Shown: positions 62,200 through 62,258 of the stretch, piece by piece
Layout of the letters: every line of letters begins with the position of its first letter
Numbering within the stretch: position 1 is the first letter of the stretch
Assembly (NCBI RefSeq): GCF_009914755.1
Contig: NC_060948.1
Origin: the human T2T-CHM13v2.0 reference genome, Homo sapiens
DNA length: 64,000 nucleotides
Direction: 5' to 3' (one strand)
Notes under the pieces: generated by a model
Databases searched by the model: none
What the model was told of the DNA's origin: nothing
What the model saw: only the letters and a program-made list of their open reading frames with translations
Made by a program: the position numbers and the translations under genes

Positions 62200-62258
62200 C
62201 TGATTGCAGTGCACTATGAGGACTGAATGACAGTGGGTTTTAATTCAGATATTTCAAG
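62200..62258 (+). other. PCDH11Y: 59-nt exon containing a uORF and the translation start
   Basis: Long polypyrimidine tract + 'caacag|'; consensus donor 'AAG|GTGAGT'. Confidence 0.88.
62227..62258 (+). CDS. PCDH11Y: Protocadherin-11 Y-linked, first coding segment ([10 protein letters not shown] + 2 nt); CDS continues beyond the window
   Basis: Frame open from ATG 62227 to the donor; peptide matches the recalled PCDH11Y N-terminus [16 protein letters not shown]... Confidence 0.8.

What the first reader, a model, noticed from the sequence alone, without database searches (positions are those of the whole stretch)
62216..62258. One base both kills the ancestral start frame and creates a new overlapping ATG (stop-start AUGA)
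Seen: ATG AGG ACT GAA TGA (62216-62230) is a 4-codon uORF. Its stop overlaps a second ATG at 62227 whose frame ([10 protein letters not shown]) stays open through the donor. If 62228 were C, frame 1 would read [14 protein letters not shown], the extension I recall for PCDH11X, and the second ATG would vanish (ACG). Established, from recall: PCDH11Y has a 13-bp deletion in the next exon that removes the downstream X-type ATG. Inference: the 11-nt start offset plus the 13-nt deletion is 24 nt, a multiple of 3, so the two lesions compensate and give the Y protein an N-terminus from an alternative frame. The uORF start has A at -3 and the new start has T at -3, so access would need leaky scanning or termination-coupled reinitiation. 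This predicts much lower translation than the X copy.
Basis: partly seen in the sequence, partly recalled or inferred. Interest (0 to 1): 0.85.

Follow-up and report, generated by a model that had tools for sequence, protein, structure and literature searches.

The report
PCDH11Y alternative start exon, known isoform
A single C-to-T change in a small upstream exon of the human Y-linked protocadherin gene stops the old reading frame and creates a new start codon that, thanks to a 13-base deletion in the next exon, still reaches the protein-coding frame; this is real, but it belongs to a gene whose variant starts are already described.

Summary
Exon 62200-62258 reads ATG AGG ACT GAA TGA, with a second ATG at 62227 that stays open to the donor. 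The X copy has C at 62228, which is the exon's only CpG. The next exon on the Y lacks 13 nt that hold the X-type ATG. In-silico splicing shows ATG 62227 entering a 1042-codon cadherin frame. On the X, ATG1 gives [14 protein letters not shown]... in frame with MDLLSG. That extension appears in 12 of 120 listed mammalian PCDH11X proteins, so the ATG1 frame is ancestral.

Two caveats apply. The PCDH11Y protein listed for this chromosome starts at a different ATG inside the next exon (MFRVGF...), so the Y protein does not depend on 62227. Also, 41 of 613 X CpGs (6.7%) read TpG on the Y across this window, so neutral CpG decay is enough and selection is not shown. The predicted weak translation was not tested.

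Papers already describe variant signal peptides for this gene. I rate the finding as already known and of modest interest.

The parts
62200..62258 (+). Alternative 5' exon of PCDH11Y (59 nt). It is the Y copy of an old alternative first coding exon of PCDH11.
   Evidence: Listed as an exon of other transcripts in the hub table. The acceptor cag|C and donor AAG|gtgagt are visible. It matches the X copy in 57 of 59 bases.
62216..62230 (+). Four-codon uORF (ATG AGG ACT GAA TGA), the remnant of the ancestral ATG1 reading frame.
   Evidence: One search gives a 4-aa ORF (MRTE) on the Y, against 1050 open codons from the same ATG on the X.
62228..62228 (+). T on the Y and C on the X. It turns CGA into TGA in the ATG1 frame and ACG into ATG in the +2 frame. 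It is the only CpG of the X-type exon.
62227..62258 (+). New Y-specific start codon and the first 10 2/3 codons ([10 protein letters not shown], then the first two bases of a Ser codon). The frame continues into the next exon.
   Evidence: after splicing to the internal acceptor of the next exon the frame stays open for 1042 codons and runs through the cadherin domains.
62210..62210 (+). Second X/Y difference in the exon (Y has T, X has A), six bases upstream of ATG1 in the leader.
62224..62226 (+). In-frame TGA directly upstream of ATG 62227. It rules out an N-terminal extension of the new frame and is also present in the X.
29814..30123 (+). Exon 1 of PCDH11Y (leader). It has 61% G+C and no ATG.
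   Evidence: Hub table.
61436..61541 (+). Optional leader exon with no ATG. It has 3 X/Y differences.
60429..60597 (+). Optional leader exon with 8 ATGs. It has no X/Y difference.
60745..60876 (+). Optional leader exon with 3 ATGs.

Best explanation
Exon 62200-62258 is the Y copy of an ancient alternative first coding exon of PCDH11. On the X, and in other mammals, its ATG (the equivalent of 62216) opens a 29-residue extension (MRT..[17 protein letters not shown].VPG) that runs in frame into the canonical MDLLSG start in the next exon. Two changes occurred on the human Y. First, a 13-nt deletion in the next exon removed the canonical ATG and shifted the frame by +1 (about window-equivalent 86455/86456, outside the window). 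Second, a CpG transition at 62228 turned codon 5 of the old extension (CGA) into TGA and at the same time created ATG 62227 in the +2 frame. Because 11 + 13 = 24, that frame is the one that now reaches the cadherin ORF. Transcripts carrying this exon can therefore encode PCDH11Y with the N-terminus [23 protein letters not shown], followed by the unchanged hydrophobic signal core [17 protein letters not shown]. All of this is shown. The remaining steps are inferred. The C>T most likely arose as ordinary neutral CpG decay and was a lucky fit rather than a demonstrably selected rescue. The Y gene also has a second route to the same frame, an in-exon ATG (MFRVGF...), which is the start of the protein listed for this chromosome. 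Ribosomes probably reach ATG 62227 mainly by leaky scanning past ATG 62216 (my odds about 55%). Short-range reinitiation after the 4-codon uORF is less likely (about 25%). Otherwise this start is hardly used at all (about 20%).
For:: sequence of the uORF and the overlapping ATG, and the splice sites; the X homologue has C at 62228, with 4 differences in 500 aligned bases; the first cadherin-coding exon was found with PF08266 on the Y (open frame 254 aa) and the X (228 aa), and the Y lacks 13 nt that contain the X ATG; the spliced models give a 4-aa ORF from Y ATG 62216, 1042 open codons from Y ATG 62227, 1050 from X ATG1, 1053 from the in-exon ATG (MFRVGF) on the Y, and an 83-aa out-of-frame ORF from that ATG on the X; an X-type exon placed in front of the Y-type next exon gives only a 38-aa dead ORF. 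Only 3 of 177 possible single-base changes create a start in the right frame, and the observed one sits at the exon's only CpG; 12 of 120 listed proteins carry the 33-residue pre-SG extension. They are a human X cDNA and models from whale, gundi, two bats, manatee, rabbit, donkey and Przewalski horse. Residue 5 is R in 8 of them, P in 2, G in 1 and Q in 1, and never a stop. P0002 (human PCDH11Y, 1340 aa) starts MFRVGF; 41 of 613 X CpGs read TpG on the Y (6.7%); the hydrophobic core (11-residue Kyte-Doolittle maximum 3.53) is retained, with 44 residues before the HSGA|QEK site inferred by homology, against 23 in the X canonical form. PMC2765723 (passages read) states that chimpanzee X and human X share the frame state that differs from the Y. 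PMC3752934 (section 6 read) states that the isoforms differ in their signal peptides.
Against: I could not fetch any ape X sequence or any second human Y. The polarity of 62228 therefore rests on the human X, on predicted protein models from more distant mammals, and on the CpG context. The mammalian extensions are mostly automated gene models, which favour long open frames. I did not see the coding annotation of the transcripts that use this exon. That RefSeq and UniProt list an isoform starting at 62227 is my recollection only. No ribosome profiling, proteomic or reporter data were available, so use of ATG 62227 and the route to it are inferred. A 6.7% prior is low enough that selection cannot be excluded. 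No signal-peptide predictor was available, so function of the lengthened signal peptide is inferred from hydropathy only.
Confidence: 0.8

Rival explanations
1. Selected compensatory rescue. After the 13-nt deletion disabled transcripts that start in this exon, the C>T was fixed by selection because it restored a protein-coding start for that transcript class. The 4-codon uORF then acts as a built-in throttle.
For: Only 3 of 177 single-base changes could rescue the frame, and one of them is what occurred. The same base also closes the dead 38-codon ORF. The summed empirical chance of any rescuing change is 7.6%.
Against: The change lies at the only CpG in the exon, where 6.7% of sites show the same state by background decay. 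The Y gene has another in-frame ATG (MFRVGF) that needs no rescue. The Y does not recombine, so fixation needs no selection on this site.
Confidence: 0.12
2. ATG 62227 is an annotation convenience and is essentially unused. Transcripts with this exon are effectively non-coding or start further downstream (the next in-frame Met is residue 82), giving a protein without a signal peptide that stays in the cytoplasm.
For: ATG 62227 has a weak context, with T at -3 and A at +4. It sits 11 nt behind an ATG with A at -3. Optional leader exons add up to 14 upstream ATGs. The next in-frame Met is at position 82. A review describes PCDH-PC as a 'cytoplasmically retained variant of PCDH11Y' (PMC6788064, passage read).
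Against: In the simplest leaders (exon 1 + this exon, or with 61436-61541 added) ATG 62216 is the only upstream ATG. Very short uORFs and closely spaced AUGs usually still let some ribosomes through (established knowledge, recalled). The hydrophobic signal core is intact behind the new start.
Confidence: 0.2
3. Termination-coupled reinitiation is the main route. Ribosomes translate the 4-codon uORF, terminate at UGA, and the 40S subunit steps back one base to the AUG of AUGA.
For: The stop and start share UG(A). The uORF is only 4 codons long, so initiation factors may still be bound. The review PMC10275272 (passages read) lists UAAUG and AUGA overlaps as reinitiation sites and notes factor retention after brief elongation.
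Against: [quoted passage not shown] It places overlapping stop-start reinitiation in viral long-ORF cases that need a structured TURBS element. With zero spacing there is no time to acquire a new ternary complex.
Confidence: 0.25

Closest known systems
PCDH11X N-terminally extended isoform (start in the homologous X exon)
   Same: It uses the same exon, the same splice sites and the same ATG (the equivalent of 62216). The X and Y exons match in 57 of 59 bases. The extension is seen in a human X cDNA protein and in 11 other listed mammalian models.
   Different: On the Y that frame stops after 4 codons. A new ATG 11 nt downstream in another frame is the only one that reaches the cadherin ORF.
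PCDH11Y start inside the long form of the next exon (MFRVGF..., protein P0002)
   Same: It is also a Y-only coding start made possible by the same 13-nt deletion. It uses the same downstream frame and the same signal core.
   Different: It needs no new mutation, because the ATG also exists in the X, where it opens an 83-codon out-of-frame ORF. It lies outside the window and does not use exon 62200-62258.
Viral stop-start overlaps (UAAUG, AUGA) with termination-reinitiation, as in caliciviruses and influenza B
   Same: The stop of the upstream ORF and the start of the downstream ORF share nucleotides in the form AUGA (review PMC10275272).
   Different: The viral cases follow long ORFs and need a TURBS RNA element that pairs with 18S rRNA. 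Here the upstream ORF is 4 codons long in a cellular 5' leader, and no such element was sought or shown.
Regulatory short uORFs in cellular mRNAs (ATF4/GCN4 type)
   Same: A short uORF lies ahead of the main start. Access to the main ORF is by leaky scanning or reinitiation (review PMC10275272).
   Different: There is no spacing between the uORF stop and the main AUG. The uORF is a recent mutational remnant of a coding frame, not a conserved regulatory element.

Membership tests
PCDH11X/Y gene pair (delta-1 protocadherin), alternative 5' coding exon | Orthologous or paralogous position and sequence in the Xq21.3/Yp11.2 block | tested here: met
   the only other match in the genome is on C23 (99% identity over 301 nt); the whole window is collinear with the X at 97.2-98.7% identity.
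PCDH11X/Y gene pair (delta-1 protocadherin), alternative 5' coding exon | The frame from the exon's start joins an ORF with protocadherin domains | tested here: met
   1042 open codons on the Y and 1050 on the X. PF08374 scores 283.8 bits and PF08266 scores 38.2 bits on the Y exons, both above their cut-offs.
PCDH11X/Y gene pair (delta-1 protocadherin), alternative 5' coding exon | Consensus splice sites shared with the X copy | tested here: met
PCDH11X/Y gene pair (delta-1 protocadherin), alternative 5' coding exon | Transcript evidence that the exon is spliced to the internal acceptor on the Y | not testable with these tools
   The hub table lists the exon for other transcripts. For the X, a cDNA-derived protein (P0003) shows the junction. 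No Y cDNA or RNA-seq data were available.
uORF with overlapping stop-start (AUGA) acting by termination-reinitiation | Upstream AUG whose stop shares bases with the main AUG | tested here: met
   ATGA at 62227-62230.
uORF with overlapping stop-start (AUGA) acting by termination-reinitiation | Main-ORF translation depends on translation and termination of the uORF | not testable with these tools
   This needs reporters or ribosome profiling.
uORF with overlapping stop-start (AUGA) acting by termination-reinitiation | Supporting RNA element (TURBS) as in the viral cases | not tested
   No search was made. The review ties this requirement to long upstream ORFs.
Compensatory pair of frame-changing mutations under selection | The two changes together restore the reading frame | tested here: met
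   11 + 13 = 24 nt. One search shows the open frame, and one search shows a 38-aa dead ORF without the C>T.
Compensatory pair of frame-changing mutations under selection | The derived state is on the Y lineage | tested here: inconclusive
   The human X has C. The extension is open in 12 listed mammalian proteins. Chimpanzee X shares the X state for the frameshift according to PMC2765723. No ape DNA was read for 62228 itself.
Compensatory pair of frame-changing mutations under selection | The change is more improbable than the background mutation rate | tested here: not met
   6.7% of X CpGs show the same CpG-to-TpG state on the Y. The summed chance of any rescuing change is 7.6%.

The most novel reading that the evidence does not exclude
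The CpG transition at 62228 was retained because it restored coding capacity to one promoter/exon-specific class of PCDH11Y transcripts. The resulting 4-codon uORF with an AUGA overlap would make this human-male-specific protocadherin isoform depend on leaky scanning or short-range reinitiation. The Y copy would then be translated at a different level from the X copy from otherwise near-identical leaders, and possibly under different (for example stress-responsive) control.
Probability: 0.1. Interest if true: 0.55.

Novelty: already known. Interest (0 to 1): 0.3.

Why it matters
PCDH11Y is a human-specific, male-only brain protocadherin whose divergence from PCDH11X has been discussed in relation to brain asymmetry and prostate cancer. 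The N-terminus decides whether the protein enters the secretory pathway, and a cytoplasmically retained variant is reported in the cancer literature (PMC6788064). Knowing exactly how each Y start arose helps in designing isoform-specific probes and reporters. One start comes from a deletion alone. The other comes from the deletion plus a CpG transition that leaves a 4-codon uORF. The case is also a clean worked example of start-codon turnover in a young Y gene. It adds no new kind of mechanism, and the isoform diversity is already in print and in annotation.

Tried and rejected
1. The key primary papers could not be read because they are not held: Blanco 2000 (pmid 11003707), Blanco-Arias 2004 (pmid 14727141), Durand 2006 (PMC4867006) and Kozak 2001 (tried by a recalled PMC id and by DOI). 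I therefore cannot say whether the dual effect of the single base is already spelled out in print.

2. Several literature searches found nothing. 'PCDH11Y' with '13 bp deletion' gave 0 papers. 'PCDH11Y' with 'uORF' gave 0. The three N-terminal peptide strings gave 0. 'constraints on reinitiation' gave 0. The search was badly framed, with min_terms 2, and returned only irrelevant papers. In one search most 'AUGA' hits were not the motif; in the top hit (PMC10193022) they were 'AUG^a^' labels.

4. I considered that the exon might be a chance ORF or a repeat. I rejected this because it is an annotated exon with consensus splice sites and a frame conserved across mammals.

5. I considered that an excess of X/Y differences in the exon might signal selection. 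I rejected this because 2 observed against 0.70 expected gives P = 0.157.

6. The protein database clusters at 90% identity, so I could not list a separate human Y isoform starting at 62227. Only the MFRVGF form (P0002, a cluster of 298 members) was visible.

Full report
**What is in the sequence.**

One search shows exon 62200-62258 with a polypyrimidine tract and a cag acceptor, and a consensus donor (CAAG|gtgagt).
- Inside the exon, ATG 62216 is followed by AGG ACT GAA and then TGA at 62228-62230.
- A second ATG at 62227-62229 overlaps that stop, giving ATGA.
- Its frame ([10 protein letters not shown]) is open to the donor and has an in-frame TGA immediately upstream (62224-62226).
- The -3 base is A for ATG1 and T for ATG2, and +4 is A for both.

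**The X copy.**

A DNA search of the window's own assembly found one other copy, on contig C23, at 99% identity. The 500-nt alignment has 4 differences. Two lie in the exon: 62210 (Y has T, X has A) and 62228 (Y has T, X has C). On the X the context is GAACGAC, so the C is in a CpG. It is the only CpG in the exon.

**The next exon and the 13-nt deletion.**

The rest of the gene lies outside the window.
- PF08374 located the large ectodomain/transmembrane exon on both chromosomes (851-codon open frames).
- PF08266 located the first cadherin-coding exon, with an open frame of 254 aa on the Y and 228 aa on the X.
- After fetching both, the alignment shows that the Y lacks 13 nt which, on the X, contain the ATG of MDLLSG.
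- The deletion lies at about window-equivalent position 86455/86456.
- An internal acceptor (...ttttggtcag|TGTTGTGCGGG) is identical in both copies.

**Frames.**

A script joined the exons as annotated or inferred.

| Start | Result |
|---|---|
| Y, ATG 62216 | 4 codons |
| Y, ATG 62227 | 1042 open codons, beginning [49 protein letters not shown] |
| X, ATG1 | 1050 open codons, beginning [39 protein letters not shown] |

With an X-type exon in front of the Y-type next exon, ATG1 would give only a 38-residue dead ORF.

**Polarity.**

No ape DNA can be reached with these tools, so I used more distant evidence.
- A protein search with the translated Y exon gave 369 hits at E <= 1e-40 among 1617 candidates, of which 120 were listed.
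- Of the 120, 101 start at MDLL and 12 carry the 33-residue extension before the SG motif.
- One each has 26, 34, 36 or 48 residues before the motif, and 3 lack it.
- The 12 are a human X cDNA protein (P0003) and models from humpback whale, gundi, two bats, manatee, rabbit (2), donkey (3) and Przewalski horse.
- Residue 5 is R in 8 of them, P in 2, G in 1 and Q in 1, and never a stop.

The ATG1 frame is therefore old and open across placental orders, and the stop on the Y is derived. The caveat is that most of these are automated gene models. For the deletion, PMC2765723 (passages and Figure 5 legend read) reports that chimpanzee X and human X share the frame state that differs from the human Y.

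**Is the Y protein dependent on this start?**

No. Sixty-five nt upstream of the internal acceptor, inside the long form of the next exon, an ATG present in both X and Y opens [38 protein letters not shown]...
- On the Y this frame runs on for 1053 codons. On the X it is an 83-codon out-of-frame ORF.
- The human PCDH11Y protein in the database (P0002, 1340 aa) starts with MFRVGF. It is listed from a contig of 62,460,029 bases, the length of this chromosome.
- The hub table shows that the selected transcript skips exon 62200-62258.

The 13-nt deletion alone therefore gave the Y a usable start. The C>T adds a second start for transcripts that use the small exon.

**Chance or selection?**

The window aligns collinearly with the X. 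Mismatches number 750 of 62,906 columns, or 1.19%.
- Two differences in 59 nt against 0.70 expected gives P(>=2) = 0.157.
- Of 613 CpGs present on the X, 78 read TpG or CpA on the Y, and the reverse holds for 56 of 607.
- Specifically, 41 of 613 (6.7%) read TpG, ten times the non-CpG C>T rate of 73 of 11,087.
- Only 3 of 177 possible single-base changes of the X-type exon would create a start in the right frame: 62228 C>T, 62233 G>A and 62253 T>G.
- Their summed empirical chance is 7.6%.

The event is a fortunate one, but it lies within what neutral CpG decay delivers, and it was noticed after the fact. Selection is neither needed nor excluded.

**How translation probably works (inference).**

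Exon 1 has no ATG, and neither does optional exon 61436-61541. Other optional exons carry 2, 8 and 3 ATGs. In all 16 exon chains modelled, the 4-codon uORF is the only upstream ORF that runs past ATG 62227. In the simplest leaders, ATG 62216 is therefore the single obstacle.

The review PMC10275272 (passages read) states two relevant points. After short uORFs the reinitiation codon lies downstream of the stop. Overlapping UAAUG and AUGA sites belong to viral long-ORF cases that need a TURBS element.

I therefore favour leaky scanning past ATG 62216 as the main route. It has A at -3 but no G at +4, and lies only 11 nt from ATG 62227. Close spacing favouring use of both AUGs is recalled knowledge, not a call. 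Short-range reinitiation is my second choice. A real possibility remains that the start is little used. The predicted lower output relative to the X leader is plausible but untested.

**The protein N-terminus.**

The hydrophobic core [17 protein letters not shown] and the HSGA|QEK site (a cleavage site inferred by homology only) are kept in all forms.

| Form | Presequence length (residues) |
|---|---|
| X canonical | 23 |
| X extended | 52 |
| Y from ATG 62227 | 44 |
| Y from the in-exon ATG | 55 |

These figures come (Kyte-Doolittle hydropathy only, since no signal-peptide predictor was available). [quoted passage not shown]

**What is known.**

PMC3752934 (section 6 read) states that PCDH11X/Y isoforms differ principally in cytodomains and signal peptides. 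It cites Blanco-Arias et al. 2004, whose title names 'variant signal peptides'. I could not read that paper or Blanco et al. 2000.

I recall, without a call, that RefSeq and UniProt list a PCDH11Y isoform with the N-terminus that starts at 62227.

Searches for PCDH11Y with uORF, with '13 bp deletion' and for the peptide strings found nothing in the held library. The uORF/AUGA aspect may therefore be undescribed in open papers. That is weak evidence, because the primary papers are not held.

**Verdict.**

The structural interpretation is correct, with two corrections: this is not the only Y start, and there is no evidence of selection. The translational consequences remain untested. The feature belongs to a known gene with described N-terminal isoform diversity, so I rate it as already known, with modest residual interest in the uORF.

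Noticed in passing
L010 about 1350-1361 (G000:C24 about 4736350-4736361, window-equivalent about 86350; outside the window); same in L011: The in-exon ATG that starts the listed PCDH11Y protein (MFRVGF...) is itself preceded, 4 nt upstream, by an out-of-frame ATG that opens a 3-codon mini-ORF (MHV-stop) overlapping it. Both Y starts therefore sit behind a tiny overlapping uORF. The arrangement is identical in the X.
   Followed up: partly
L011 (G000:C23:90286128-90289127), in-exon ATG 65 nt upstream of the internal acceptor: On the X the MFRVGF ATG opens an 83-codon ORF that overlaps the canonical MDLLSG ATG out of frame. In X transcripts with the long exon form it would act as an overlapping uORF against the canonical start.
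   Followed up: no
window 1-64000 against G000:C23:90196001-90266000: CpG decay is asymmetric. 78 of 613 X CpGs read TpG or CpA on the Y, against 56 of 607 Y CpGs that read TpG or CpA on the X. This would fit a higher mutation rate on the Y lineage, but polarity was not established.
   Followed up: no
window 1-10055: X/Y identity is lower in the first 10 kb (97.2%) than in the rest of the window (98.6-98.7%). This part is largely masked as repeats in the hub table.
   Followed up: no
window 60429-60597: This optional leader exon has 8 ATGs, four of them in a GGATGGATGAATGGATGG run. It has 35% G+C and no X/Y difference in 169 nt. Any transcript that includes it would have a heavily uATG-laden leader.
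   Followed up: partly
protein P0109 (Microcebus murinus model): A mouse-lemur PCDH11X model starts MFTVGFLIIS... and runs in frame into MDLL. The in-exon upstream ATG region is therefore old, and in that species it lies in the cadherin frame without any deletion. It is a predicted model only.
   Followed up: no
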